Shown one piece after another: positions 1 to 62,391 of a stretch of DNA of 64,000 nt. The stretch comes from Candidatus Woesearchaeota archaeon. GTDB taxonomy: Archaea > Nanobdellota > Nanobdellia > Pacearchaeales > GW2011-AR1. Below the pieces are notes generated by a model. It ran no database searches. It saw nothing but the letters and a program-made list of their open reading frames with translations, and was not told the DNA's origin. The stretch lies in contig CAZUTV010000001.1 in assembly GCA_964623495.1 (NCBI GenBank), forward strand, positions 44,682 to 108,681, given 5' to 3'. The translations under genes and the position numbers were made by a program. Each line of letters begins with the position of its first letter. Positions within the stretch are counted from its first letter, which is position 1.

Positions 1-2025
1 TTTCTCCTCAGCAAATTAGCATTGCTAACAACAGTTATTGAAGATGCAGCCATAGCAATTTCTGCAATTATTGGATGAAGAATTCCTCCAACAGCTAAAG
101 GAATAGCAACAACATTATAGGCAAAAGCCCAGAACAAGTTTTGTTTTATTTTTGAAAAAGTGGCTTTGCTTAATCTTATAGCAGCAACAACTCCCAACAA
201 AGAGCCTCTCGCTAATACTAAATCTCCTGCTTCTATTGCAATATCTGTTCCTGTTCCCATTGCAATTCCAACATTTGCCTGCTTTAATGCAGGAGCGTCA
301 TTAATTCCATCCCCAATAAATGCAACCATGCCTCTTTTTTGCAGTTCTATTACTTTATTTGCCTTGTCTTCTGGAAGAACATTTGCAATTACTTCTTTAA
401 TTCCAACTTCCTTAGCAATTGCTTTGGCAGTTCTTTCATTGTCTCCTGTAATCATAACTGTTTTATATCCTGCATAATTAAGCATTGAAATCGCTTTCAT
501 TGAGTCATCTTTAACAGCATCAGCAATCCCAATAATCCCAAGAACTTTTTTGTTTTCGGCAACAATTACAGCAGTATATCCAGAATCTTCAAATTCTTCA
601 ATATTCTTTTCAAGACCCTTTAAAAGTATGCCCTTTTCTTTCATTAATGTTGAGTTTCCAATAATAATATTCTTGCTTCCAATCTTTCCTTCAACACCCC
701 GTCCCCTTAAGATTTTGAATGATTTAACTTCTTTGTATCTCTTTAATCCTGCTTTTTGCACAATGGCCTTAGATAACGGATGCTCGCTTAGTTTTTCAAG
801 GCTTCCAGCAATTTCAAGCAAATAAGATTCTTTGACTTTAGAATAAATCTGCCTTACTTCTGGCTTTCCTTTTGTTATTGTTCCTGTTTTATCGAAAACA
901 ACATATTTTATCTCTTTCATTGTCTGGATTGCCTCTCCCTTTCTAATTAAAATTCCTTTTTTAGCTCCCATTCCGCTTCCCACAGTTAAAGCAATAGGAA
1001 CTGCAAGTCCTAAAGCACACGGACAAGCGATTACAAGAACAGAAATTGCAACCCCAATAGACCGCCCTATTTCTCCATTAAAGTACCACCAGCCGAAAAA
1101 TGTCAAAACAGCAACAACAAGTATTGATGGAACAAATATGCTTGTTATGTAATCTGCTGTTTTTTGTATTGGCACTTTTGTTCCTTGCGCTTCTTCAACC
1201 AATTCTATAATATGGGCAAGGAAAGTGTCTTTCCCTACTTTTGTGGTTTTAATATACAATATCCCATCTTGATTTAAGGTAGCTCCAATTACCGGACTTC
1301 CTTTTAATTTGTCAATAGGAAGACTTTCTCCGGTAACCATTGATTCATCAACAGCGCTCTCTCCCCTGACTACTATCCCATCTGTTGGAATCTTTTCCCC
1401 CGGCTTAACAATTAAAACATCTCCAACAACAACTTCTGAAATTGGGATTTCAACTTCTTCTTTGCCTCGCAAAACACGGGCATTTTTAGCTCCAAGTTCA
1501 AGCAGTTTTTTTATTTCTTGAGACGCTCTTCCTCTTGCCTTGGCTTCAATATATTTTCCTGTAATAAATATAGCCATAATCATTGCAGAAACCCCGGAAT
1601 AATCATTAATCTCCATAAAAAAGGTTAGTATTCCAGTTAGGTAAGCAATTATTGTTCCTAAAGAAATTAAAGAGTCCATATTAAAGTAAAATGTAAATAA
1701 CCCCCTAAATCCAGACTTTAAGGTTGAAAAGCCAAATATAAAAACAACAGGAAACCCAAGAATAAGTAAAATAGCAATTAGCCACTCTTCTGGCAAAAAC
1801 ATTAGATCAAAAACTCTCATAAGGACCATTATTATTGCAATAGGAATTGCAAAGATCCAACTGCCGACAAGTTTTCTTTTCCAGCCTCTGATTTCAGAAT
1901 CTTCTGCCGGCTTTGAATGATCATGATTATGGTTCATTCTAAGTTCTGGTTTGGGAATCTTTCTAAAAGGTTCAATTTCGTGATTTTTATTGTTCACTCT
2001 ATCATCTATTCTAAAGTGTTCCATT
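1..2025 (-). CDS. copA: Cu(I)-translocating P1B-type ATPase; 3' end runs past the window edge, which is why no ORF was reported
   Basis: Reverse-strand translation gives [16 protein letters not shown] (phosphorylation DKTGT), [18 protein letters not shown] and a His-rich N-terminus MNHNHDH. The plus-strand ORFs 160-2138 are its antisense. Confidence 0.85.
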
Positions 2026-2034
2026 TGATGTTTC

Positions 2035-2244
2035 TTAATCAATGCTTGTTACTCTGTATCCAACTTTTGCAACAGCTTTCTTTAATTCTTCATCACTTGC
2101 TTTTTCATCAGCTTCAACAAATGCCTTTTTTCCTATAACACTAACGCTGACTTCCTTGACTCCAGAAATCTTTTTCAAGCTTCTTTCAATGTTTGTTGCA
2201 CAGCTAGCACAATGCATTCCTTCTATGTTTATTTTTTTCTTCAT
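2035..2244 (-). CDS. copZ: HMA-domain copper chaperone (CopZ-like)
   Basis: [15 protein letters not shown] metal-binding MxCxxC motif; 69 aa ferredoxin-like HMA length; lies 10 nt upstream of copA. Confidence 0.8.
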
Positions 2245-2261
2245 TTTTTTATTTTATAAAT

Positions 2262-2498
2262 TTATCTTTTGTTGACTTGTTTTACTAACCAAACTACCCC
2301 TAATATGATAAATATCAATATTCCGATATTTGTAATGTAGCTAATTAATTGTCCATAGCCATATCCCCCAGATCCATAGTTCCAGTTCCCCATCATGTTG
2401 CAAATTCCCCAGCCGGAATTTCCTGTCCATGGAATCATTGCTATTGCTAATAAAATTACAGCCCCTAAAACTATCCAAACTATTCTTTGGTCTTTCAT
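2262..2498 (-). CDS. small two-TM protein with Gly/Tyr/Met/Cys-rich extracytoplasmic loop (candidate Cu-binding)
   Basis: TM-loop-TM topology; loop GNSGWGICNMMGNWNYGSGGYGYG; paralogue of 2572-2808. Confidence 0.5.
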   Translation of the reverse strand: MKDQRIVWIVLGAVILLAIAMIPWTGNSGWGICNMMGNWNYGSGGYGYGQLISYITNIGILIFIILGVVWLVKQVNKR

Positions 2499-2571
2499 TT
2501 TAATTTTTTAATTAATCTCCTATTTGAAAACTTTATTGTGAATTGTTGGTTTGGGAACCTTTTCAAAAGGT

Positions 2572-2808
2572 TCATTTTTGGATCTGCTTTACTAGCCAGA
2601 CAATGAATAAAACCGCCAAAACCAAAATAATTATATTAAATATCCATCCAAAAATCCAACCAGCTCCGTATCCATAGTTGCCAGACATCATACCCCACAT
2701 TCCACCAAAGTTGCCATATCCCATCATCCCATATCCAAATCCGCCAAAAAGCAACAAGATTAGGACGACCAAGACAACTATTAGGATAGTGTTATTATCC
2801 TCTTTCAT
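2572..2808 (-). CDS. small two-TM protein with Gly/Tyr/Met-rich loop, paralogue of 2262-2498
   Basis: Loop GGFGYGMMGYGNFGGMWGMMSGNYGYGAGW; same architecture and C-terminal WLVKQ motif. Confidence 0.5.
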   Translation of the reverse strand: MKEDNNTILIVVLVVLILLLFGGFGYGMMGYGNFGGMWGMMSGNYGYGAGWIFGWIFNIIILVLAVLFIVWLVKQIQK

Positions 2809-2809
2809 C

Positions 2810-3178
2810 TTATTTGCTTCCTCCTTTCATGTTATGCAATATGTGTATGCAATACTGCGACATGTGCTTATCAATAAGCTTCATTATTGGCTTTATTGTT
2901 TCTTCATTTAAGGAATAATAAATAAATTTCCCATCTCTTTCTGTTTTCACAAACCCGCATTGCCTTAATCTAGCAAGATCATGGGAAATTGCAGTTTGAT
3001 CCATTTTAAGTTCTCTCATTATTTCGCTAACATTCTTTTTCTCATTTCTCAATAAATTTATAATCTTTAGCCTTGACTCAGAAACCAATGTTCCAAAGAA
3101 GACTTTGTAAGCCCCATAAACTTCATTTTCATGAAACCCTTCTTTATGAACGTGATGTAACATGTTTTTATTAATCAT
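2810..3178 (-). CDS. ArsR/SmtB-family metalloregulator
   Basis: wHTH LKIINLLRNEKKNVSEIMRELKMDQTAISHDLARLRQCGFV. Confidence 0.75.
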   Translation of the reverse strand: MINKNMLHHVHKEGFHENEVYGAYKVFFGTLVSESRLKIINLLRNEKKNVSEIMRELKMDQTAISHDLARLRQCGFVKTERDGKFIYYSLNEETIKPIMKLIDKHMSQYCIHILHNMKGGSK

Positions 3179-3223
3179 ATGATAATCCCATACATATGTA
3201 TTTATAAATGTTTCGGTGTTTGA

Positions 3224-3679
3224 CTAGCCATTTTTTTTGAAAATCCATAAGCCAATAGCTAAAATTATCGCAATAAAGACTTGAATTTCAATTCCCCCAA
3301 AAGGAAGGCTTGCAAACGAAAACCCTATTCCCAAAGCACTAAAAATCATGGGAAACAAGCCAGTAACGCACAAAGGGCACACCCCAACAATTAATCCTCC
3401 CAAAGTTCCAACCCCCGCTGTTGCAACTGCTTTTCTGCATTTTTGCCTTTCTTTATATTTAACAAAAGCCGTTACAGCATTAATGGAAACTAGAATCCCG
3501 ATGACTAGAGTTAAAATTATCGAAATTCCAAGTTTAAGCCAGTTGACTGTGTCCGCATAAATTATAAACGACTTAATAGTGTTGTAAAAACCGCTAAAAA
3601 TAACATTCAAAATTATATAAACAATAAAAATTAAAAAAATCCAATAAATATATGGTTTTTTGAAAATTTTCATAATCAC
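3224..3679 (-). CDS. 4-TM membrane protein with CPLC motif (putative metal/thiol handling)
   Basis: GVCPLCVTG inside a TM helix; hydrophobic profile. Confidence 0.45.
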   Translation of the reverse strand: MIMKIFKKPYIYWIFLIFIVYIILNVIFSGFYNTIKSFIIYADTVNWLKLGISIILTLVIGILVSINAVTAFVKYKERQKCRKAVATAGVGTLGGLIVGVCPLCVTGLFPMIFSALGIGFSFASLPFGGIEIQVFIAIILAIGLWIFKKNG

Positions 3680-4074
3680 TCAACGATCAGCTTTCCAGAA
3701 CCCATTCCCATGGAGCACATAAAGACATAAGTTCCTTTTTCTTCAGGCGTAAATTCTACATAATCTTTTGGTGTTGGCAGTTGTTTGCTGATTCCTAGGG
3801 CCCTTATATTAAAACTTCTATAACATCCGTAAACACTCTTATCTAGGTAAATTCTTACAGGCAAACCGGCCTTTACAGTTACGGTATTAGGGTAATAATT
3901 AAAATTCTGCATGCTTAAGACAATTTCCTGAACATTTCCATCCACTATTCCCCCGTTTCCAGAAGGTTTCAAATCTTCGTTTCCTTGCCCGCTAACAAAA
4001 ATAAAGTATCCTAATACTACCACCGCAATTACCACTATGAAAAGCGTTATCTTCTTCATCCTCCGCAGCCACAC
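3676..4074 (-). CDS. secreted cupredoxin-like domain protein
   Basis: Signal anchor, then beta-rich domain ending FMCSMGMGSGKLIV (Cys/Met ligand pattern of cupredoxin-like Cu proteins). Confidence 0.55.
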   Translation of the reverse strand: MWLRRMKKITLFIVVIAVVVLGYFIFVSGQGNEDLKPSGNGGIVDGNVQEIVLSMQNFNYYPNTVTVKAGLPVRIYLDKSVYGCYRSFNIRALGISKQLPTPKDYVEFTPEEKGTYVFMCSMGMGSGKLIVE

Positions 4075-4526
4075 CCTCCGCCATTCGCCATTCCGCAGCT
4101 TGATCCGGTTTGGGTTTTTTGTTCAACGTAAGCTGGTTTTGTGCCGTCATTCTCCAGAACAGTAAAAGACCCTTGGTACATGTTCATTGAGCATGCTATA
4201 TTGAAAGTTCCTGCTTTATTTGGAGTAAATTCTATTACATTATCTGAGCTAGATAAGCTCTTTCTTATATTAAATGCAGAGATAACAACCGATTTAGAAC
4301 AACCAGGCATTTTGCTTATATCTGCTTCTATTCTTACAGGAGTATCTTTCTTGATTGTTGAAGGACTTAAGATATAGTTTCCTCCTTCGACAGAGAGCTT
4401 GACAATCTGCACATTTTCATTTGCAATAACATTCCCTGTTGTTGCGCTTCCTGAATTTGTGAATACAAATACTGCAGCCACTAAAACAATCATTCCTATT
4501 CCAATAATTGCTGTTTTGTTTTTCAT
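4056..4526 (-). CDS. secreted cupredoxin-like protein with C-terminal Cys/Gly tail
   Basis: Paralogue of 3676-4074 (IACSMNMYQGSFTV); tail SSCGMANGGGCGCGG; overlaps the downstream gene by 19 nt. Confidence 0.55.
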   Translation of the reverse strand: MKNKTAIIGIGMIVLVAAVFVFTNSGSATTGNVIANENVQIVKLSVEGGNYILSPSTIKKDTPVRIEADISKMPGCSKSVVISAFNIRKSLSSSDNVIEFTPNKAGTFNIACSMNMYQGSFTVLENDGTKPAYVEQKTQTGSSCGMANGGGCGCGG

Positions 4527-4593
4527 CTTTTATTTACCTCCTTCTCTTTAAATCTGGTTTCCAATTGATTTAAATGCTTTGATGCAATCAGTT

Positions 4594-5277
4594 TCATCCA
4601 AATAATGCACTCCTTGGTCCAAAAACCATAAGCCAGCTAGTAGCCAAGGTTAACACTAAACTGGTGACTATTGCTATAAAATGATCTTCCTTTACCTGCC
4701 TATCACTTTCTTTGGTTTCTGTAAATATCATGTAATTTAATGAGGCAAGAATCACAGTACATACCCCGAAGATGATAATGCTTGCAATTTTCAGATTGTC
4801 ATTTATTAACATTACTGCAGTCATTGCGCCCATCCAGCCACCCATAAAACCCGCCATTATACCTTCCATGAATCCCATTACTCCACAGCAAGATCCCATC
4901 CAGATTCCAAGGACAATCCCTACAGCCATTCCAAAAACTCCCCCAATAAACATCCCGTTAGTTGCTCCCATGAAATATCCTGCCAAAAACCCGGCTATCA
5001 TTCCAATAGTCATCCCAACCATCATGCCAGACATGCACGCCATTTGCTTATATGCCCTAATCTGTTTTATTGTTGGAATAACGAGCGCATAGCTTAAGAC
5101 CGCAAATAAAAGGTAAAATCCGTATTTAGGAATAAAATTCTCGACATATCTTAATTTAAAATAATAAAATAAGGCAAGGACTATCAGAGATGTAATAAGT
5201 GAGTAAAATATGGTTTTAATTAACTCTCCTTCTACCCTATTTCCATTCAATTCTTTAGTGAATTCTTTAAACGACAT
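4594..5277 (-). CDS. membrane protein with Met/Gly-zipper TM helices
   Basis: CMSGMMVGMTIGMIAGFLAGYFMGATNGMFIGGVFGMAVGIVLGIWMGSCCGVMGFMEGIMAGFMGGWMGAM. Confidence 0.5.
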   Translation of the reverse strand: MSFKEFTKELNGNRVEGELIKTIFYSLITSLIVLALFYYFKLRYVENFIPKYGFYLLFAVLSYALVIPTIKQIRAYKQMACMSGMMVGMTIGMIAGFLAGYFMGATNGMFIGGVFGMAVGIVLGIWMGSCCGVMGFMEGIMAGFMGGWMGAMTAVMLINDNLKIASIIIFGVCTVILASLNYMIFTETKESDRQVKEDHFIAIVTSLVLTLATSWLMVFGPRSALFG

Positions 5278-5329
5278 GATATTATGGCTTTTTATTCATT
5301 TAAATAATTTATGAAGTAACTGGTTTCAA

Positions 5330-5359
5330 GGTATAATAAAATAAAAATAAAATAAAAAA
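5330..5359 (-). terminator. oligo-T terminator downstream of the DsbA-like gene
   Basis: Minus strand reads ATTTTTTATTTTATTTTTATTTTATT immediately after the stop. Confidence 0.35.
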
Positions 5360-6061
5360 TTATTTTGCAAGCTCTGCGTCAATTGCCTGCTTGAATACTT
5401 CGTATGGTTGTGCACCGCTTATGAATGCCCCATTAACAAAAAACCCGGGAGTTCCCTGAACCCCATAGCTTTGCCCGTCAGTCATGTCTTTTCTTATTTC
5501 GCCTGCCATCTGTCCAGAGTCAAGACAGCTGTTGAACTTGCCTATATTGAGCCCTATCTGCTGAGCATAAGCCTTCAAGCTATTCACATCTAATGCTTTC
5601 TGGTTTGTAAAAAGCTTGTCATGCATTTCATAATATTTTCCCTGCTCTCCAGCACACTCCGCAGCTTCTGCTGCTTTTTGAGCATTAGGGTGGAAGCTTA
5701 ATGGAAAGTCTCTGAAAACAATTCTTACTTTTCCGGTATCAACATATTCCTTCTTTATTTGTGGATATGTCTGGCTGAAGTGCCTACCGCAATACGGACA
5801 TTCATAGTCACTGAATTCAACCATTGTTACTTCTGCATCTTTGTTGCCAAGAATGGCGTCGTCATCAATGCTTACCTGAACTTTTGAAGGCTCAGGACTA
5901 GGTACACTATCTCCTGCAACTGCATTGCCTGTCACGCTTCCTCCACTCATTCCAAATCCGCCAGTGAATAGGCTTATGACAAATAATGCTGCAAAAAGGA
6001 AGGTTCCTATCTGCCACATAGTGTGTTTTTTAACAGTTATTGATTCTTCTCTTTGTTCCAT
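5360..6061 (-). CDS. DsbA-like thiol:disulfide oxidoreductase, membrane-anchored
   Basis: Thioredoxin-fold CPYC active site (FSDYECPYCGRHF); N-terminal TM; likely start at internal MWQIG. Confidence 0.75.
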   Translation of the reverse strand: MEQREESITVKKHTMWQIGTFLFAALFVISLFTGGFGMSGGSVTGNAVAGDSVPSPEPSKVQVSIDDDAILGNKDAEVTMVEFSDYECPYCGRHFSQTYPQIKKEYVDTGKVRIVFRDFPLSFHPNAQKAAEAAECAGEQGKYYEMHDKLFTNQKALDVNSLKAYAQQIGLNIGKFNSCLDSGQMAGEIRKDMTDGQSYGVQGTPGFFVNGAFISGAQPYEVFKQAIDAELAK

Positions 6062-6125: not shown

Positions 6126-6599
6126 TTAGTCCTTTAGGACTACGATGTTATTCATCCCCCTTCGTTTTCTTTCAATCAACTGCTTGGACTCTAGCTTGTC
6201 AAGAAGTCTCGTCATCTTAACCTTGCCAATTTGAAGTTTTTCCATTACATCTGCCTGAAACATTGCATTTCCTTCTTTAGATAATAAATCAACAACAAGT
6301 TTCTCTTCTTTTTCTAAGCCAGAAATATCAAGCTTCTTCTTCTTTTCTGTAATATTCTTCACAACAATTTTTTCTTTTGGTTTTGAAAACATAATGAATA
6401 AGCCTATAATAACGATAACTCCTATAATTGTTACACTAATCCAAGTCTGAGTTCTTATTGTCCCATACATGCCACAACTCGGGCCGTGCGTGCAGGTTTG
6501 ACTAACTATATCTTTTAATCCAAAATTGAATAAAAGTACAACTGCTAGCATTATTACTGCAATTCCTAAGATTAACCAACCAACTTGTTTATTTTCCAT
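6126..6599 (-). CDS. membrane-tethered winged-helix regulator
   Basis: Two N-terminal TM segments flanking CTHGPSCGMYG, then C-terminal wHTH MTRLLDKLESKQLIERKRRGMNNIVVL. Confidence 0.55.
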   Translation of the reverse strand: MENKQVGWLILGIAVIMLAVVLLFNFGLKDIVSQTCTHGPSCGMYGTIRTQTWISVTIIGVIVIIGLFIMFSKPKEKIVVKNITEKKKKLDISGLEKEEKLVVDLLSKEGNAMFQADVMEKLQIGKVKMTRLLDKLESKQLIERKRRGMNNIVVLKD

Positions 6600-6891
6600 T
6601 TTTTTTGTTTAACCTCTTTAGCAATTCATTCATGTCTCTTTTACTCATTCCGTGAACCATACATCCTTCTTCAATTGTTTCAGCCATGGACATTGGACAT
6701 CCGATACAGTGAAACCCAATATCAAAAAGCAGGTCTGCGGCTTCTGGATTTAGGTACATTATCTCTGCAATCCTTGTGTCTTTAGTAATTTCTTTCTGTA
6801 CGGCAGTGCTTTGTTTAGACATTTTGGGTGAATCCTTAGTTGTCACAACAACATTTATGGCCCTTATTGCAGTTGCAGTCCTCTCCATCAC
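6589..6891 (-). CDS. DUF1858-type redox-disulfide domain protein (start probably at internal MSKQ, 6822)
   Basis: FHCIGCPMSMAETIEEGCMVHG motif. Confidence 0.6.
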   Translation of the reverse strand: MMERTATAIRAINVVVTTKDSPKMSKQSTAVQKEITKDTRIAEIMYLNPEAADLLFDIGFHCIGCPMSMAETIEEGCMVHGMSKRDMNELLKRLNKKNGK

Positions 6892-6940
6892 AGCAGTCTT
6901 TCTCTTTGTCTTTCTTTTGCTTTGGTTTTTTCTTCTCCAT
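6836..6940 (-). CDS. candidate 34-aa Lys-rich / Cys-rich metallothionein-like peptide
   Basis: MEKKKPKQKKDKEKDCCDGEDCNCNKGHKCCCDN; it is an internal-Met sub-ORF of the 71-aa track ORF 6836-7051 and sits between the DUF1858 gene and the ArsR gene. Confidence 0.25.
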   Translation of the reverse strand: MEKKKPKQKKDKEKDCCDGEDCNCNKGHKCCCDN

Positions 6941-7001
6941 CTTTCGTTTCCTTGTTTTTGTAAAATGAGTTATGCGGAATCTCTTGATTCCAAATTTTCC
7001 A

Positions 7002-7307
7002 TTAGTGACATTCGCAATTGCAATTAGGTTTGTTACAACAACATCTTGCATGTTTATCTGTCATCTCAAGCATTGGGATCACTGTTTTACTGAGAGAATA
7101 TATCCTTTCCTTGCCTTTCTGCTTAGAATTGACGATTCTGCATTTTTTTAGGGATGCAAGCGCATGAGAAAGCTTGCTTTGTTCAACTTTAAGCTCCTTT
7201 ACAAGCTCGCTAACATTTTTGTCCTTATTTCTCAAACTAAGAATTATCTCAATCTTTAACGGATTAGCAAGGTTCGTAAAAAATGTACAATAAAAGTGTT
7301 TCTGCAT
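7002..7307 (-). CDS. ArsR/SmtB-family regulator with C-terminal Cys cluster
   Basis: HTH NVSELVKELKVEQSKLSHALASLKKCRIV; tail CCCNKPNCNCECH. Confidence 0.7.
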   Translation of the reverse strand: MQKHFYCTFFTNLANPLKIEIILSLRNKDKNVSELVKELKVEQSKLSHALASLKKCRIVNSKQKGKERIYSLSKTVIPMLEMTDKHARCCCNKPNCNCECH

Positions 7308-7449
7308 ATATGAATCCTAGTTCATATGACTTTATAAATCTTGCGAAGATAAAGTTAAAAAATGAATAAGTAACAACTTTTAATTAAGTACGCCTTTATA
7401 GTTACAACAGTATACAAATATTTATAAATCAAAAAGAAAGAGTATTTTC

Positions 7450-7938
7450 ATGAGTTCAAGCACAGGGTTGATAATTGTTGTTACAATCGCTTTAATTGCC
7501 GTAGTTCTTATAGGCGGCTATTTATTGCTAGGCGATTTTTCAAGTTATGATGAAGATCAAGATTATGTTGCTCCTAGCAATTCTTTCGATCAAGAGCTTT
7601 CTAACCTAAGAGAAGCAAATTTTCAATTGAGCATGCAGCTTAGCAATGCCCAAAACGAAATTAAGAACTTAAAATCTCAGCAAAACCAATACTCTCAAGC
7701 ATCAACCGATGACAGAAAATGCAGCAACCTTGATGATGACTATGATGAAATTAAGGAAGACATAGATGATAAAGAAGAGGATATTGAAGACTTAGAGGAT
7801 GAAATAGACAGGAAAATACTCAATAACGAAACAGTGACTGACTTGCAAAACAGATTAGACAACTTATACGAAGATTTAGATGACCTTGAAAATGATCTTG
7901 ATGACATCAAGGACGATTTAGACAGATATAACTGCTGA
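7450..7938 (+). CDS. N-terminal TM anchor plus acidic coiled-coil protein
   Basis: TM helix, then highly acidic heptad-like region (DDDYDEIKEDIDDKEEDIEDLEDEID). Confidence 0.45.
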   Translation: MSSSTGLIIVVTIALIAVVLIGGYLLLGDFSSYDEDQDYVAPSNSFDQELSNLREANFQLSMQLSNAQNEIKNLKSQQNQYSQASTDDRKCSNLDDDYDEIKEDIDDKEEDIEDLEDEIDRKILNNETVTDLQNRLDNLYEDLDDLENDLDDIKDDLDRYNC

Positions 7939-7941
7939 ATT

Positions 7942-9084
7942 CTAAAAAGAAAATCTTCTTAACTTACTAATTATCTTTTCCAACTTCTCAAGAACAAAAT
8001 CCAATTCTTCTTTTGTAGTATACTTGCTTATACTGATCCTTACGCTTGATGCAATTTCCTTGTCGGTTCGTCCGATTGCCTTTAATACGTGACTTTTGGC
8101 GCCAGTATGCGAACTGCAAGCACTTCCAGTAGATGTATAAATTCCTTCATTCTCTAAATACCCTCCAAGCGCTTCTCCTTCAACTTCTTCAATACATAAA
8201 TTGATATTATTGGCTAGTCTATTTTTTCCAGAAGGGCCGTTTAACTCAACTCTTTCAATTTTCAAGACTTTACTTAAAAAATAATCTCTTAACTCTTCCA
8301 TTCTTTTAACGTCTTTAGAATTAGCAATTTCAACAGCCTTGGCAAACCCAACAATCCCAGAAACATTTTCAGTCCCTGATCTGAAGCCTCTTTCATGTCC
8401 ACCCCCATGGAAAAATGGATCAATTTTGATTCCTTCTCTTATATACAAAGCTCCAACACCCTTAGGACCGTGAATTTTGTGCCCGTTAAGAGTCATTAAG
8501 TCAATATTCATTTTTCTTACATCTATTGGGACCTTAGTAAAGCTCTGGCACGCATCTGTATGGAATAAAACCCCTTTTTTCTTGCAGATTTTTCCAATTT
8601 CTTCAAGATTTTGTATGGTTCCTATCTCATTGTTTCCGTGAATTATTGAAACAAGAAATGTTTTGTCAGTAATTGCCTTTTCAACATCTTTGGGATTAAC
8701 AAAACCCTCTGAATCAACATCTAAATAAGTAACTTTAGCAACATGCTTTTCAAGATATCTGCAAGTGTTCATAACACAATCATGATCGATTTTGGTTGTT
8801 ATTATATGGTTTTTTGAAGGATAATTCGCATAACAAAGTCCTGTAATTGCAAAATTGTTGCTTTCAGTTCCTCCTGATGTAAAAACAATCTCGTTAGCCT
8901 TTGCATTTATTGCTTTGGCAATAATTTTTCTAGAATTCTCTAAAGCCTGTTTAGCTTGTTGCCCAAAAATATGAACACTCGAAGCATTTCCATATTTTTC
9001 ATTAAAGTAAGGAGTCATTTCTCTAAGCACTTGATCATCTACTTTAGTTGTAGCTGCATTGTCTAGATATATTGTCTTGGGCAT
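7942..9084 (-). CDS. cysteine desulfurase (class V aminotransferase, NifS/IscS/SufS-like)
   Basis: PLP-lysine region LNGHKIHGPKGVGALY; SGGTESN; active-site Cys loop TGSACSS. Confidence 0.85.
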   Translation of the reverse strand: MPKTIYLDNAATTKVDDQVLREMTPYFNEKYGNASSVHIFGQQAKQALENSRKIIAKAINAKANEIVFTSGGTESNNFAITGLCYANYPSKNHIITTKIDHDCVMNTCRYLEKHVAKVTYLDVDSEGFVNPKDVEKAITDKTFLVSIIHGNNEIGTIQNLEEIGKICKKKGVLFHTDACQSFTKVPIDVRKMNIDLMTLNGHKIHGPKGVGALYIREGIKIDPFFHGGGHERGFRSGTENVSGIVGFAKAVEIANSKDVKRMEELRDYFLSKVLKIERVELNGPSGKNRLANNINLCIEEVEGEALGGYLENEGIYTSTGSACSSHTGAKSHVLKAIGRTDKEIASSVRISISKYTTKEELDFVLEKLEKIISKLRRFSF

Positions 9085-43497: not shown

Positions 43498-43717
43498 ATT
43501 CTCTGATTATATTGAAATTATGTAGGAAAACAAGCCAGACAAAAGCCCATAGAAACAAGTCAAATCTAAGGTTGAAATCCATTCCAATTATTCCATTAAT
43601 TAAGATATAGACTATAAAGAAAAGAGCAACTGCTAATCCAAAATAGTTTACCCATATTGGTCTTTCTCTCATGATTAAATTTTGTTTTGTCATTTTAATT
43701 TCTCCTCGTTGCAGCAT
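43469..43717 (-). CDS. small 2-TM membrane protein
   Basis: ORF plus hydrophobicity. Confidence 0.35.
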   Translation of the reverse strand: MLQRGEIKMTKQNLIMRERPIWVNYFGLAVALFFIVYILINGIIGMDFNLRFDLFLWAFVWLVFLHNFNIIREFDYRKGNGF

Positions 43718-43883
43718 ACAAAGCAGCTAATCCAACAGCAGCAATCCCCCCGTAAACAACTTCTGGCTGTTTGAGGTTATATCTATCATTCCTTCCTTCG
43801 CTTAAGCCATTTGCTAGTGAAAGAACTGCCACTGAAGCAGCAGCTATTGCTCCTATTCTAAAAATGTTTGCTATTGTTTTCAT
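43695..43883 (-). CDS. small 2-TM membrane protein
   Basis: ORF plus hydrophobicity. Confidence 0.35.
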   Translation of the reverse strand: MKTIANIFRIGAIAAASVAVLSLANGLSEGRNDRYNLKQPEVVYGGIAAVGLAALYAATRRN

Positions 43884-62264: not shown

Positions 62265-62391
62265 TGCGCGGACCGGGAATCGGACCCGGGTCACCTCGTC
62301 TTTGCATTTTTGCTTCTTTGAGCGCCGAACTTTCTTTCTAAAGAAAGTTGGGCATTGGCAACGAGATATTCTACCATTAAACCATCCGCGC
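62265..62391 (-). tRNA. tRNA-Gly (GCC) with about 54-nt intron in the anticodon loop
   Basis: Perfect acceptor GCGCGGA/TCCGCGC and T-arm CCGGG-TCCGATT-CCCGG; anticodon stem TCTCG...CGAGG interrupted after TTGCCA by an insert with an internal hairpin. Confidence 0.7.

What the first reader, a model, noticed from the sequence alone, without database searches (positions are those of the whole stretch)
6822..7051. Metallothionein-like peptide ORF and an ArsR regulator with a Cys-cluster tail
Between the DUF1858 gene and the second ArsR gene there is an ORF whose last 34 codons encode MEKKKPKQKKDKEKDCCDGEDCNCNKGHKCCCDN, with 9 Cys in 20 residues. It does not overlap the DUF1858 gene if that gene starts at its internal MSKQ, which gives a more typical 77-aa DUF1858. 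The adjacent ArsR ends in CCCNKPNCNCECH. Cys-cluster peptides of this kind are not generally annotated in small AT-rich archaeal genomes, and it would be missed by standard gene callers.
Basis: partly seen in the sequence, partly recalled or inferred. Interest (0 to 1): 0.55.

Follow-up and report, generated by a model that had tools for sequence, protein, structure and literature searches.

The report
Conserved metallothionein-like peptide gene in archaeon
A 34-codon gene for a lysine-headed, cysteine-rich peptide lies unannotated between a metal-sensor-type repressor gene and a small redox-protein gene in a tiny (DPANN-type) archaeal genome; relatives keep it under purifying selection, so it is a real gene, and it most likely binds metals through its cysteines.

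Summary
The conserved gene is the 34-codon form (6836-6940, minus strand). The 71-codon form and the 99/100-aa DUF1858 form are not conserved.

Two close relatives (L002, L203) keep the ATG, the stop, all 7 Cys and the His. Their differences fall mainly at third codon positions (pN/pS 0.07-0.13), and one indel is in frame. DUF1858 starts at MSKQ behind a conserved TAAGGA(G).

In 80 Pacearchaeota/Woesearchaeota/Nanoarchaeota loci the conserved cluster is ArsR (Cys tail) -> NifS -> DUF1858. Thirteen of them carry a Lys-headed Cys-rich micro-ORF in the NifS-DUF1858 slot, mostly behind GGAGG. The core motif is CxCCxCxPCxCxPxCxCCxC, and the window peptide aligns to it without gaps.

The ArsR genes share TATA + ATATGAA-N6-TTCATATG, ending on the start codon. 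This indicates a leaderless, probably autorepressed operon. The window cluster also runs into a copper-type resistance island.

No Pfam, PDB or large protein-database family matches the peptide.

Best reading: a metallothionein-like thiolate peptide made with its ArsR/SmtB-type sensor. Main rival: a sulfur or Fe-S handling partner of NifS/DUF1858. Function is inferred, not shown.

The parts
6836..6940 (-). Micro-protein gene, 34 codons plus TAA: MEKKKPKQKKDKEKDCCDGEDCNCNKGHKCCCDN. It has a Lys-rich head and a 20-residue core with 7 Cys and 1 His.
   Evidence: Searches give the sequence. Orthologues in L002 (35 aa, called by a gene caller) and L203/P0122. Differences by codon position are [7,2,20], [4,1,14] and [3,1,14]; pN/pS is 0.07-0.13; the 3-nt indel is in frame; all Cys and the His are kept with TGC<->TGT changes. 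It aligns without gaps to the CxCCxCxPCxCxPxCxCCxC peptides of other loci and scores E=3e-8 with the family HMM, which was built from an alignment that includes it.
6946..6953 (-). Weak Shine-Dalgarno-like AAGGAAAC, 6-13 nt upstream of the peptide ATG.
   Evidence: It is identical in L002. L203 has GAGG at a similar distance. Eight of 13 related Cys-rich micro-ORFs have GGAG(G) at -8 to -14.
6976..6991 (-). Inverted repeat GGAATCAAGAGATTCC in the 61-nt spacer between the ArsR stop and the peptide ATG. Its role is unknown: partial terminator, RNA stability element or protein-binding site.
   Evidence: The RNA fold is -8.9 kcal/mol, z = -2.65. L002 has AGAATCAAAAGATTCT, where the outer G-C pair has changed to A-U on both sides. 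L203 lacks the whole spacer; there the ATG lies 4 nt after the ArsR stop.
7002..7307 (-). ArsR/SmtB-family repressor (ArsR2), 101 aa, with tail H86-ARCCCNKPNCNCECH.
   Evidence: Pfam HTH_5, E=4.9e-11. PDB relatives are CzrA, SmtB, NmtR and CadC, with E down to 1.5e-13 for the family profile. There are 415 homologues, mostly Pacearchaeota. H86 and C91 are invariant and the tail is always Cys-rich. H86 aligns with the second His of the HH pair in CzrA's IHHAN.
7308..7327 (-). Palindrome ATATGAACTAGGATTCATAT directly abutting the ArsR2 ATG. Probable ArsR operator over the transcription start.
   Evidence: TGAA-N6-TTCA lies within 70 nt upstream of the ArsR start in 75 of 82 loci, nearly always as ATATGAA-N6-TTCATATG with the last ATG as the start codon. 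It is the only exact copy in the 64-kb window.
7331..7338 (-). TATA box TTTATAAA, ending 23 nt before the ArsR2 ATG. This spacing implies a leaderless mRNA.
   Evidence: The same TTTATAAA/TTTAAATA element sits at the same distance in nearly all 82 loci. The leaderless conclusion is an inference from that spacing.
6589..6822 (-). DUF1858 (CxxC) protein in its short 77-aa form starting MSKQ. TAAGGA (6833-6838) is both the peptide stop and an SD-like element 10-12 nt before this ATG.
   Evidence: The Pfam DUF1858 match (E=1.3e-17) begins at residue 35 of the 100-aa ORF. L002 is called as 76 aa starting MSKQ. In 60 relatives the frame upstream of the MSKQ-equivalent position closes after a median of 5 codons, and typical lengths are 65-80 aa. 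The solved homologues 2K53 and 2K5E are 76 and 73 aa. TAAGGAG is conserved in L002 and L203.
6126..6599 (-). Downstream gene of the same strand run: a 157-aa protein with hydrophobic N-terminal segments and a C-terminal winged-helix (DUF7343/MarR-like). It overlaps the DUF1858 stop by 11 nt.
   Evidence: It recurs downstream of DUF1858 in 15 of the related loci.
7942..9084 (-). NifS-type cysteine desulfurase (class-V aminotransferase). It is the conserved partner of this ArsR/DUF1858 cluster in relatives. Here it is separated from ArsR2 by a plus-strand coiled-coil gene (7450-7938).
   Evidence: Pfam Aminotran_5, E=1.2e-89. NifS is adjacent to ArsR in 77 of 82 loci. No operator copy lies upstream of NifS in the window.
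3..6061 (-). Context on the same strand: a metal-handling island. It holds a DsbA-like protein (5360-6061), a Met-rich membrane protein (4594-5277), two cupredoxin-like proteins (4056-4526, 3676-4074), a CPLC membrane protein (3224-3679), a second ArsR (2810-3178), two 78-aa Gly/Tyr-rich membrane proteins, an HMA-domain ORF (2038-2244) and a P1B ATPase with CPC, YN and MxxSS motifs (3-~1940, running off the window).
   Evidence: Assigning the ATPase to the Cu(I) P1B-1 type from these motifs rests on my own knowledge of the signatures.

Best explanation
Positions 6836-6940 (minus strand) are a genuine, translated micro-gene. Its product has a Lys-rich head and a 20-residue core with 7 Cys and 1 His (CC-x4-CxC-x3-H-x-CCC). 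That core most likely folds only around thiophilic metal ions, so the peptide would be a metallothionein-like buffer or sequestrant.

It is the second cistron of an operon headed by ArsR2. ArsR2 is an ArsR/SmtB-type repressor. Its leaderless mRNA starts at a TATA-proximal palindrome (ATATGAA-N6-TTCATAT) that the repressor presumably occupies. When a soft metal (Cu(I), Cd, Zn; the identity is unknown) binds the His86/Cys-rich C-terminal tail, repression would be relieved. The peptide, the CxxC protein DUF1858 and the downstream genes would then be made together.

Shown here: the gene is conserved and under purifying selection, the DUF1858 start is the short one, a peptide family exists, the promoter/palindrome architecture is conserved, and the regulator belongs to the ArsR family. 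Inferred: translation in vivo, co-transcription, the metal as effector, and metal binding by the peptide.
For: Real gene:
- Three orthologues keep the ATG, the stop, 7 Cys and the His.
- Of the pairwise differences, 20/29, 14/19 and 14/18 fall at third codon positions (binomial P = 1e-4 to 4e-4).
- pN/pS is 0.07-0.13 in this frame and about 1 in the frame of the open antisense 83-aa ORF.
- The indel is in frame.
- The N-terminal extension to 71 aa is broken by stops in L002.

Family:
- 13 of 80 independent genome loci carry Lys-headed Cys-rich micro-ORFs on the operon strand in the NifS-DUF1858 interval. Eight have GGAG(G) SD sites.
- Cys spacing is fixed and Pro is conserved (CxCCxCxPCxCxPxCxCCxC). 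The window peptide aligns without gaps, with His replacing one Cys.

Metallothionein-like character:
- 21% Cys overall and 35% in the core, with CC and CxC motifs and no aromatic residue.

Regulator:
- HTH_5 domain and CzrA/SmtB/CadC/NmtR homology.
- Invariant H86 and C91 with a Cys-rich tail.
- TGAA-N6-TTCA over the start codon in 75 of 82 loci.

Context and precedent:
- The window cluster continues into HMA, a CPC-type P1B ATPase, cupredoxin-like proteins and a second ArsR.
- Bacterial metallothioneins are rare, small and easily missed. MymT was found as a non-annotated ORF (PMC7558416).
Against: - No metal-binding data exist.
- There is no homology to any metallothionein family in Pfam or the PDB.
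- Across relatives the conserved partners are NifS and DUF1858, not metal exporters. No HMA, ATPase or cupredoxin genes were found within 3 kb in the other loci. DUF1858 is linked in the literature to Fe-S maturation (fusion with SufT; PMC4982691) and to CxxU redox chemistry (PMC9312934).
- The number of Cys in the slot varies from 4 to 11, and 67 of 80 loci have no Cys-rich ORF there. The peptide is therefore accessory.
- The canonical alpha5 ligands of CzrA (the LDDIH stretch) are not conserved in the regulator, so its effector could be something other than a metal ion, such as an Fe-S cluster or a thiol oxidant.
- Co-transcription with ArsR2 is inferred. A hairpin plus a short T-run lies in the spacer.
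Confidence: 0.5

Rival explanations
1. The peptide is a real gene product, but its cysteines work with the cysteine desulfurase and DUF1858. It would act as a persulfide acceptor, a minimal Fe-S (or metal-sulfide) scaffold or a carrier. The ArsR with its Cys tail would then sense cluster or thiol status (as SufR or IscR do) rather than a toxic metal.
For: - In relatives the Cys-rich micro-ORF lies directly after nifS in 12 of 13 loci, and the cluster ArsR-NifS-DUF1858 is conserved (NifS in 77 of 82 loci, DUF1858 in 60 of 82).
- A second, acidic 2-Cys micro-ORF often follows it. This recalls small acidic partners of desulfurases, a resemblance from memory.
- No IscU-like scaffold gene is present in the cluster.
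- DUF1858 occurs fused to SufT and as a CxxU selenoprotein.
- The canonical alpha5 metal ligands are missing from the regulator.
Against: - Up to 10-11 Cys within about 20-25 residues, with no other structure, is unlike known Fe-S scaffolds, which use 3-4 ligands. It is typical of metallothioneins (own knowledge).
- In this window and in L002 the ArsR promoter/operator stayed with the peptide and DUF1858 while nifS was left outside, with no operator upstream of it.
- The window cluster is contiguous with copper-type resistance genes.
- Most NifS-DUF1858 clusters work without such a peptide.
Confidence: 0.27
2. The ORF is translated, but the peptide itself does not matter. Its Cys codons make it a cysteine-supply sensor (a regulatory upstream ORF) that tunes translation or transcription of DUF1858 and downstream genes. 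This would resemble the polycysteine short ORFs of mycobacteria.
For: - Cysteine-responsive polycysteine short ORFs are documented (bioRxiv 10.1101/834739).
- The ORF is tightly coupled to the next gene. Its stop overlaps the SD of DUF1858, and family members end 2-5 nt before the next ATG.
- It is linked to a cysteine-consuming enzyme.
Against: - Non-Cys positions are conserved: Pro, Gly-His and the Lys head. Cys spacing is fixed across loci whose ArsR proteins are only 57-71% identical to the window's.
- pN/pS is 0.07-0.13 over the whole peptide.
- The ORF is not the leaderless first cistron, and no alternative terminator/antiterminator structure lies downstream of it.
Confidence: 0.08
3. 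There is no peptide gene. The ORF would be a by-product of a long (99-100 aa) DUF1858 gene, as currently annotated, or of the open antisense 83-aa hydrophobic ORF (6776-7027, plus strand), or simply chance in an AT-rich spacer.
For: - Public annotation holds the 99-aa DUF1858 form.
- The antisense frame stays open in L002 and L203.
- Cys-rich windows arise often in off-frame translation.
Against: - The long DUF1858 N-terminus is not conserved. Stops lie upstream of MSKQ in L002, the median open stretch is 5 codons in 60 relatives, and the domain and solved homologues are about 75 aa.
- The antisense 83-aa frame has pN/pS of about 1. It stays open because the complements of Lys, Glu and Cys codons contain no stops.
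- The peptide frame has a conserved ATG, a conserved stop, an SD-like element, third-position substitutions and distant family members with GGAGG sites.
Confidence: 0.04
4. The peptide is the precursor of a ribosomally made, post-translationally modified natural product. The Lys-rich head would be the leader and the Cys-rich core would be cross-linked.
For: The peptide is small, has a two-part leader-plus-core layout and has many Cys.
Against: No radical-SAM, YcaO, lanthipeptide-type or protease/exporter genes were recognised next to any of the 13 family loci or in the window cluster. The conserved neighbours are ArsR, NifS, DUF1858 and a winged-helix membrane protein.
Confidence: 0.03

Closest known systems
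SmtB/SmtA of Synechococcus PCC 7942, and BxmR/BmtA of Oscillatoria (ArsR-family sensor plus bacterial metallothionein)
   Same: An ArsR/SmtB-family repressor is encoded next to a small Cys/His-rich metal-binding protein gene. The regulator here is homologous to SmtB and CzrA. The type C relatives of the peptide contain CxCxPCxC (for example CECEPCIC), which is also the N-terminal CACEPCLC of SmtA (1JJD sequence confirmed; peptides).
   Different: There is no significant sequence similarity to SmtA (BLASTP E = 0.077 and 0.81) and no Pfam Metallothio_Pro match. The peptide is 34 aa rather than 56 and lacks the aromatic zinc-finger-like middle part. The genes are co-directional, with the regulator first, rather than divergent. 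The host is an archaeon. The window peptide itself lacks the Pro.
MymT, the copper metallothionein of Mycobacterium tuberculosis
   Same: It is a very small (4.9 kDa) Cys-rich protein that was discovered as a non-annotated ORF, and it is tied to metal (Cu) stress (PMC7558416; PMC11672702).
   Different: There is no sequence relation. MymT is under a different copper-sensing repressor type (own knowledge), not an adjacent ArsR. MymT has experimental support and this peptide has none.
Fungal 25-residue Cu-metallothioneins (Neurospora/Agaricus type; 7 Cys) - from my own knowledge
   Same: The core size and Cys number are about the same (7 Cys in roughly 20-25 residues), with CxC-type motifs and no aromatic residues.
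   Different: The Cys spacing is unrelated, there is no Lys-rich head, and the host is a eukaryote. This resemblance is recalled from memory and was not tested here.
Polycysteine leaderless short ORFs of mycobacteria (cysteine-responsive attenuators; bioRxiv 10.1101/834739)
   Same: Both are short unannotated Cys-codon-rich ORFs upstream of operon genes connected with sulfur/cysteine metabolism.
   Different: Here the ORF is SD-led and internal to the operon. Residues other than Cys are conserved and Cys spacing is fixed. That points to a functional peptide.
SufR/IscR-type Fe-S-sensing repressors with desulfurase operons, and small desulfurase partners (IscU, IscX) - from my own knowledge
   Same: A winged-helix repressor with a C-terminal Cys cluster heads an operon containing a cysteine desulfurase. 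Small Cys-rich and small acidic proteins follow the desulfurase.
   Different: There is no homology of the micro-ORFs to IscU or IscX (no Pfam hits). The regulator is a minimal 100-aa ArsR/SmtB protein, not SufR or Rrf2. In this window NifS lies outside the operator-controlled unit.

Membership tests
Metallothionein (operational definition) | Low molecular mass (under about 10 kDa) | tested here: met
   34 aa.
Metallothionein (operational definition) | High Cys content with CC, CxC or CxxC motifs and few or no aromatic residues | tested here: met
   7 of 34 residues are Cys (21%), and 7 of 20 in the core. Motifs are CC, CxC and CCC. There is no F, W or Y and one His. Relatives reach 10-11 Cys in about 33-36 residues.
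Metallothionein (operational definition) | Binds several metal ions in metal-thiolate clusters | not testable with these tools
   This needs peptide chemistry (ESI-MS, UV/CD titrations).
Bacterial metallothionein BmtA/SmtA family (Pfam Metallothio_Pro) | Match to the family profile, or homology to SmtA (1JJD) | tested here: not met
   No Pfam family at E<=1 for the window peptide or at E<=10 for all 11 family peptides. No PDB hit at E<=10. BLASTP against SmtA is not significant.
Bacterial metallothionein BmtA/SmtA family (Pfam Metallothio_Pro) | N-terminal CxCxxCxC motif (KCACEPCLC) | tested here: inconclusive
   Present as CxCxPCxC in type C relatives (L072, L047, L026, L070, L050). The window peptide has only CNC at that place. 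An 8-residue motif cannot establish homology.
ArsR/SmtB metalloregulators (for ArsR2) | Winged-helix HTH_5 domain and homology to characterised members | tested here: met
   PF01022, E=4.9e-11. CzrA, SmtB, NmtR and CadC are hit with E = 1e-13 to 1e-6.
ArsR/SmtB metalloregulators (for ArsR2) | Imperfect palindromic operator (TGAA-N6-TTCA type) in its own promoter | tested here: met
   ATATGAACTAGGATTCATAT at 7308-7327 abuts the ATG. The same architecture is found in 75 of 82 loci. That this matches the CzrA/SmtB operator core is from memory. Binding itself was not tested.
ArsR/SmtB metalloregulators (for ArsR2) | A recognised metal-sensing site (for example alpha5 DxHx10Hx2E or alpha3N) | tested here: not met
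   The CzrA LDDIH stretch aligns with N-K-x-T in this family. Only H86 matches, aligning with the second His of CzrA's HH pair (H97 by my recollection of the numbering). The other candidate ligands are the C-terminal Cys residues: C91 is invariant, and the window also has C89, C90, C96, C98, C100 and H101. This would be a different, tail-based site. Its effector is unknown.
DUF1858 (PF08984) | Profile match; single-domain protein of about 65-80 aa with a CxxC | tested here: met
   E=1.3e-17. The 77-aa form fits the relatives (65-80 aa) and the solved 73-76-aa homologues. HCIGCP is conserved.
Polycysteine regulatory short ORFs | Leaderless first ORF of the transcript; only Cys codons matter | tested here: not met
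   The ORF is the second cistron behind ArsR2, with an SD-like element. Family members have GGAGG. Non-Cys residues and spacing are conserved and pN/pS is 0.07-0.13.
RiPP precursor peptides | Adjacent maturase, protease or exporter genes | tested here: not met
   None was recognised in the window cluster or within +/-3 kb in the related loci.

The most novel reading that the evidence does not exclude
The Cys-rich micro-protein and its relatives (types B and C), together with the acidic 2-Cys micro-protein, NifS and the CxxC protein DUF1858, would form a miniature, previously unrecognised sulfur-mobilisation and metal-cluster module of DPANN archaea. This could be Fe-S assembly or repair, or peptide-capped metal-sulfide formation. 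A tail-sensing ArsR would control it from a leaderless, operator-overlapped promoter. In that case the peptide is a minimal cluster scaffold or carrier rather than a passive metal sponge.
Probability: 0.22. Interest if true: 0.8.

Novelty: new variant of a known kind. Interest (0 to 1): 0.6.

Why it matters
Small Cys-rich proteins fall below gene-caller thresholds. Here the gene is also hidden by an over-extended call of its neighbour.

I could find no report of an archaeal metallothionein in the searchable literature. From my own recollection, reviews treat metallothioneins as undocumented in Archaea. This search is not exhaustive.

A conserved family of 30-55-residue thiolate-rich peptides in the reduced genomes of Pacearchaeota/Woesearchaeota, wired to an ArsR-type sensor, a cysteine desulfurase and a CxxC protein, would add a missing element to archaeal metal and sulfur homeostasis.

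It also yields three practical results:
- A clean, testable promoter/operator model for an archaeal ArsR.
- Corrected gene models: DUF1858 is 77 aa, and there is a new 34-aa gene.
- A short synthetic target for metal-binding chemistry.

Tried and rejected
- The word-index protein search with the 71-aa ORF found nothing.
- The family alignment found only P0121 and P0122. phmmer against 1.84 billion representatives found only P0122. The protein databases barely contain these peptides.
It returned almost only low-complexity TGC/TGT DNA of GC-rich or eukaryotic contigs. No hit had an ArsR or DUF1858 neighbour, and the single NifS-like match (L112) looks unrelated.
- Pfam and PDB searches of all family peptides were negative.
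- An internal promoter for the peptide (TTTTACAAAA in the spacer) was rejected. It lies 17 nt from the ATG, against 21-23 nt for the family's TATA boxes.
- The spacer inverted repeat is probably not a second ArsR operator, because its half-site spacing differs (GAATC-N4-GATTC against TGAA-N6-TTCA) and L203 lacks it.
- A window-wide operator search allowing 1 mismatch was at chance level (6 found, 7.8 expected). No wider regulon could be defined.
- The antisense 83-aa ORF was rejected on pN/pS of about 1. The antisense frame that shares wobble positions shows low pN/pS (0.11-0.22) as an expected artefact.
- Metal-resistance genes were not found within 3 kb in the other loci.
- No IscU-like gene lies between ArsR and NifS; the inserts there are heterogeneous.
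- No DUF1858 protein with a fused Cys-rich tail was found.
- Recurrent 'MCCCNCNFFYDN...' ORFs downstream of DUF1858 were judged off-frame readings of the hydrophobic start of the next gene. This is by inspection only.
- Structure prediction of the peptide was not run, because a single 34-aa sequence that probably folds only with metal would not be informative.
Full report
**1. What is there**

On the minus strand the window carries a run of co-directional genes:
- ArsR2 (7002-7307, 101 aa, Pfam HTH_5 E=4.9e-11).
- A 71-codon ORF (6836-7051).
- DUF1858 (6589-6891 if started at GTG; Pfam E=1.3e-17, with the domain beginning at residue 35).
- A 157-aa protein with hydrophobic N-terminal segments and a winged helix (6126-6599).
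- A DsbA-like protein (5360-6061).

The last 20 residues hold 7 Cys, not 9. ArsR2 ends in CCCNKPNCNCECH. With the ATG at 6820-6822 (MSKQ), DUF1858 is 77 aa and starts 13 nt after the peptide's TAA.

**2. Is it more than chance?**

Cys density alone does not settle this. The real window has 23 stop-to-stop ORFs with at least 5 Cys in 20 residues and two with at least 7. The second of those (43693-43776) was not examined further. Random Markov-1 sequences of the same size give means of 1.4 and 0.03. Off-frame reading of coding DNA therefore appears to produce Cys-rich stretches readily.

The decisive evidence is comparative.
- A Logan contig (L002; ArsR 86% identical) has a gene-caller-predicted 35-aa ORF, MEKKKPKQKEKKEKACCDEDNCECEKGHKCRCCND, followed by a 76-aa DUF1858 starting MSKQ.
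- An ENA contig (L203) encodes MEKKKPKQKKNKEKDCCDEDNCECKNGHKCRCCDD.
- Among the three sequences, differences by codon position are [7,2,20], [4,1,14] and [3,1,14] (binomial P = 1e-4 to 4e-4).
- All seven Cys and the His are kept, with TGC/TGT switches. The single indel is 3 nt and in frame.
- pN/pS is 0.07-0.13 in the peptide frame.
- pN/pS is about 1 in the frame of the open antisense 83-aa ORF (6776-7027, plus strand). It is 0.11-0.22 only in the antisense register that shares wobble positions, which is an expected artefact.
- The 37-codon N-terminal extension of the 71-aa form is an off-frame reading of the ArsR tail and is interrupted by stops in L002.

**3. The DUF1858 start**

It is not met.
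- L002 has stops just upstream of MSKQ.
- In 60 relatives the frame upstream of the MSKQ-equivalent position closes after a median of 5 codons, and lengths cluster at 65-80 aa.
- The solved homologues 2K53 and 2K5E are 76 and 73 aa.
- TAAGGA(G), which spans the peptide stop and an SD-like element, is conserved 7-10 nt before the next ATG in all three orthologous loci.
- Public collections nevertheless hold only the 99-aa DUF1858 form and neither peptide form. JGI's calls on L001 list a 71-aa ORF and a 99-aa DUF1858.

**4. A family, and its neighbourhood**

The ArsR has 415 homologues, largely from Pacearchaeota. All end in ...DKH-x(3-4)-C followed by a Cys-rich tail, and H86 and C91 are invariant.

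A genome scan with this alignment gave 80 loci from Pacearchaeota, Woesearchaeota and Nanoarchaeota MAGs. The conserved order there is ArsR -> NifS-type cysteine desulfurase -> DUF1858. Counting L001 and L002 as well (82 loci in all), NifS is present in 77 and DUF1858 in 60. The winged-helix membrane protein often lies further downstream.

The NifS-DUF1858 interval holds up to two micro-ORFs on the operon strand.
- **Type C** (8 loci): for example MEKKKTKSEKVCSCCECEPCICKPECKCCCCEC, with the core CxCCxCxPCxCxPxCxCCxC.
- **Type B** (5 loci): for example MKKTKKRKKQYACCDEEKMTCESCSFEESIKIKDKDEE.
- **Type A** (about 18 loci): an acidic 2-Cys ORF of about 42 aa, for example MKTKKKFKEHACAFKNEAECEEELNDDGLNLDEAEEEFFEEE.

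Types B and C occupy the same slot. Both have a Lys-rich head, and 8 of 13 have GGAG(G) 8-14 nt before the ATG.

The window peptide aligns without gaps to type C, with His in place of one Cys. It shares CCD[GE][ED] with type B. It scores E=3e-8 with an HMM of the family, which was built from an alignment that includes it.

In the window and in L002 the order differs. It runs NifS (7942-9084), then an opposite-strand coiled-coil gene, then ArsR2, the peptide and DUF1858.

**5. Regulation**

In 75 of 82 loci the ArsR gene is preceded by TTTATAAA (or TTTAAATA), 3-5 nt, then ATATGAA-N6-TTCATATG. The final ATG of that element is the start codon.

The TATA-to-ATG distance of 21-23 nt implies a leaderless mRNA. 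This is an inference from the usual archaeal TATA-to-start spacing. The palindrome then covers the transcription start, which is the classical arrangement for autorepression.

In the window the element is ATATGAACTAGGATTCATAT (7308-7327), with the TATA box at 7331-7338. It is the only exact copy in 64 kb. One-mismatch copies are at chance level, and none precedes nifS.

The peptide ATG lies 61 nt after the ArsR2 stop in the window and 4 nt after it in L203. It has a weak SD-like AAGGAAAC and no TATA at a workable distance. The simplest model is therefore an operon with the regulator first. This is inferred.

The spacer contains a small hairpin (6976-6991; -8.9 kcal/mol, z = -2.65). L002 has a two-sided change in its outer pair. 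The function of the hairpin is unknown.

**6. The regulator's sensing site**

The family profile hits CzrA, SmtB, NmtR and CadC (E = 1e-13 to 1e-6). In the CzrA alignment the family's invariant H86 aligns with the second His of CzrA's HH pair in IHHAN. By my recollection of the numbering this is the alpha5 ligand H97. CzrA's LDDIH stretch aligns with N-K-x-T.

This is therefore not a canonical alpha5 site. It is a His-plus-C-terminal-thiolate site. Such thiolate-rich tail sites are known for thiophilic effectors in this family (own knowledge: the C-terminal Cys triad of A. ferrooxidans ArsR, and Cys102 of CmtR). An Fe-S ligand set cannot be excluded.

**7. Context in the window**

Downstream on the same strand lie:
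- A DsbA-like protein and a Met-rich membrane protein.
- Two cupredoxin-like proteins, one ending in GSSCGMANGGGCGCGG.
- A membrane protein with a CPLC motif.
- A second ArsR paralogue ending LIDKHMSQYCIHILH.
- Two 78-aa Gly/Tyr-rich membrane proteins.
- An HMA-domain ORF.
- A P1B ATPase with CPC, N-x6-YN-x4-P and P-x6-M-xx-SS motifs.

These ATPase motifs are the Cu(I)-type signature as I know it. No such genes lie within 3 kb in the other loci.

**8. Interpretation**

That this is a real gene is well supported (about 0.9). For function I commit to a metallothionein-like, thiolate-based metal-binding peptide that is co-expressed with its ArsR/SmtB-type sensor (0.5). The reasons are:
- Its composition and motifs.
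- The fixed Cys/Pro/His spacing.
- The type of regulator.
- The fact that the promoter/operator stayed with the peptide and DUF1858 when nifS was separated in this lineage.
- The contiguous copper-type island.

The main rival (0.27) is a partner of NifS/DUF1858 in sulfur or Fe-S handling. It is favoured by the family-wide position directly after nifS and by the literature links of DUF1858 to SufT and to CxxU redox chemistry. It is also favoured by the accompanying acidic micro-ORF and by the lack of any scaffold gene.

The two readings can be merged. Thiophilic-metal stress damages Fe-S clusters. One operon could therefore supply sequestration, sulfur and repair together.

A Cys-sensing regulatory ORF (0.08), a non-gene (0.04) and a RiPP precursor (0.03) are less likely, for the reasons given under the rival explanations.

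**9. Comparison with known systems**

In how it would work, the closest systems are SmtB/SmtA and BxmR/BmtA, and MymT as a precedent for an overlooked metallothionein ORF.

In membership, the peptide meets the operational definition of a metallothionein except for the untestable metal-cluster criterion. It is not a member of the BmtA/SmtA family or of any Pfam or PDB family. Only the octapeptide CxCxPCxC of type C relatives echoes the CACEPCLC of SmtA.

I found no report of an archaeal metallothionein in the searchable literature. That search is not exhaustive.

**10. Verdict**

This is a new variant of a known kind. It is an unannotated, lineage-specific family of metallothionein-like micro-proteins in DPANN archaea, with a clear and testable regulatory model. 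Interest 0.6.

Noticed in passing
L004 4469-4597; also L005, L006, L015, L033, L042, L043, L049, L051, L057, L058, L062, L063, L070, L073, L080, L081 (Cys-less in L076): A second conserved micro-ORF family lies between nifS and DUF1858. It is about 42 aa and very acidic, with the motif F-E/K-x-H-A-C-x-F/L-K/R-N-E-A-E-C-E-E-E-L, and several members sit behind GGAGG. It is not present in the window cluster. It may be a small acidic partner of the desulfurase.
   Followed up: partly
L003 4470-4595, L006 4579-4689, L033 4875-4991, L049 4549-4653, L005 4663-4782: 'Type B' micro-ORFs have a Lys head followed by ACCDEE..(T/I)CE(S/P)C.. and an acidic tail, with 4-6 Cys. They occupy the same slot as the Cys-rich type C peptides and bridge them to the window peptide through CCD[GE][ED].
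   Followed up: partly
window 7308-7338 and the ArsR upstream regions of L002-L082: There is a near-universal promoter architecture: TTTATAAA, 3-5 nt, then ATATGAA-N6-TTCATATG, with the last ATG as the start codon. This implies leaderless ArsR mRNAs with the operator over the transcription start (75 of 82 loci).
   Followed up: yes
window 6976-6991 (minus strand): A hairpin, GGAATCAAGAGATTCC, lies in the ArsR2-peptide spacer. L002 has a two-sided change of the outer pair, and L203 lacks the whole 60-nt spacer. Its function is unknown.
   Followed up: partly
window 6126-6599 (minus strand): A 157-aa protein has hydrophobic N-terminal segments, a CTHGPSCG stretch and a C-terminal DUF7343/MarR-like winged helix. 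It recurs downstream of DUF1858 in about 15 related loci and may be a membrane-tethered regulator. Its start overlaps the DUF1858 stop.
   Followed up: partly
window 3-2244 (minus strand): An HMA-domain ORF (69 aa, MHCASCA) ends in a stop. A P1B ATPase with CPC, YN and MxxSS motifs follows in another frame. This is either a separate CopZ-like gene or a frameshifted N-terminal domain of the ATPase.
   Followed up: partly
window 4056-4526 and 3676-4074 (minus strand): Two tandem cupredoxin-like proteins are present. The first ends in a Gly/Cys tail, GSSCGMANGGGCGCGG, which is another possible thiolate metal site.
   Followed up: no
window 4594-5277 (minus strand): A 227-aa membrane protein is very rich in Met and Gly (GMxxGM repeats plus a CC pair). 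It has no Pfam family. One relative is seen in L017. It may be a soft-metal transporter.
   Followed up: no
window 2262-2498 and 2572-2808 (minus strand): Two paralogous 78-aa proteins have terminal hydrophobic segments and a central Gly/Tyr/Trp/Met-rich stretch (GNWNYGSGGYGYG). They lie between the second ArsR and the HMA/ATPase genes and have no Pfam family.
   Followed up: no
window 2810-3178 (minus strand): A second ArsR paralogue (about 40% identical to ArsR2) ends in LIDKHMSQYCIHILHNMKGGSK. It keeps the DKH...C position but has a His-rich rather than a Cys-rich tail. This suggests two sensors with different effectors in one island.
   Followed up: no
metagenome loci L113, L136, L165, L173, L188: Unrelated proteins end in a C-terminal motif such as CDCCECDPCDCDWGN, which has the same CxCCxCxPCxC spacing as the type C peptides. 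One of them carries DUF7417. This may be a portable metal-binding tail.
   Followed up: partly
L004 5013-5102, L019 5051-5113, L070 3031-3120 and others: Recurrent 'MCCCNCNFFYDNSACKRK' ORFs occur downstream of DUF1858. They look like off-frame readings of the hydrophobic N-terminus of the next gene and not like genes. This was judged by inspection only.
   Followed up: partly
window 62265-62391 (minus strand): A tRNA match spans 127 nt against the 71-nt model, which suggests an intron-containing tRNA. That fits an archaeal genome. Four ordinary tRNAs lie elsewhere in the window.
   Followed up: no
window 7450-7938 (plus strand): A 162-aa protein with an N-terminal hydrophobic segment and a very acidic coiled-coil is inserted on the opposite strand between nifS and ArsR2. 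It is conserved in L002 (56% identity).
   Followed up: no
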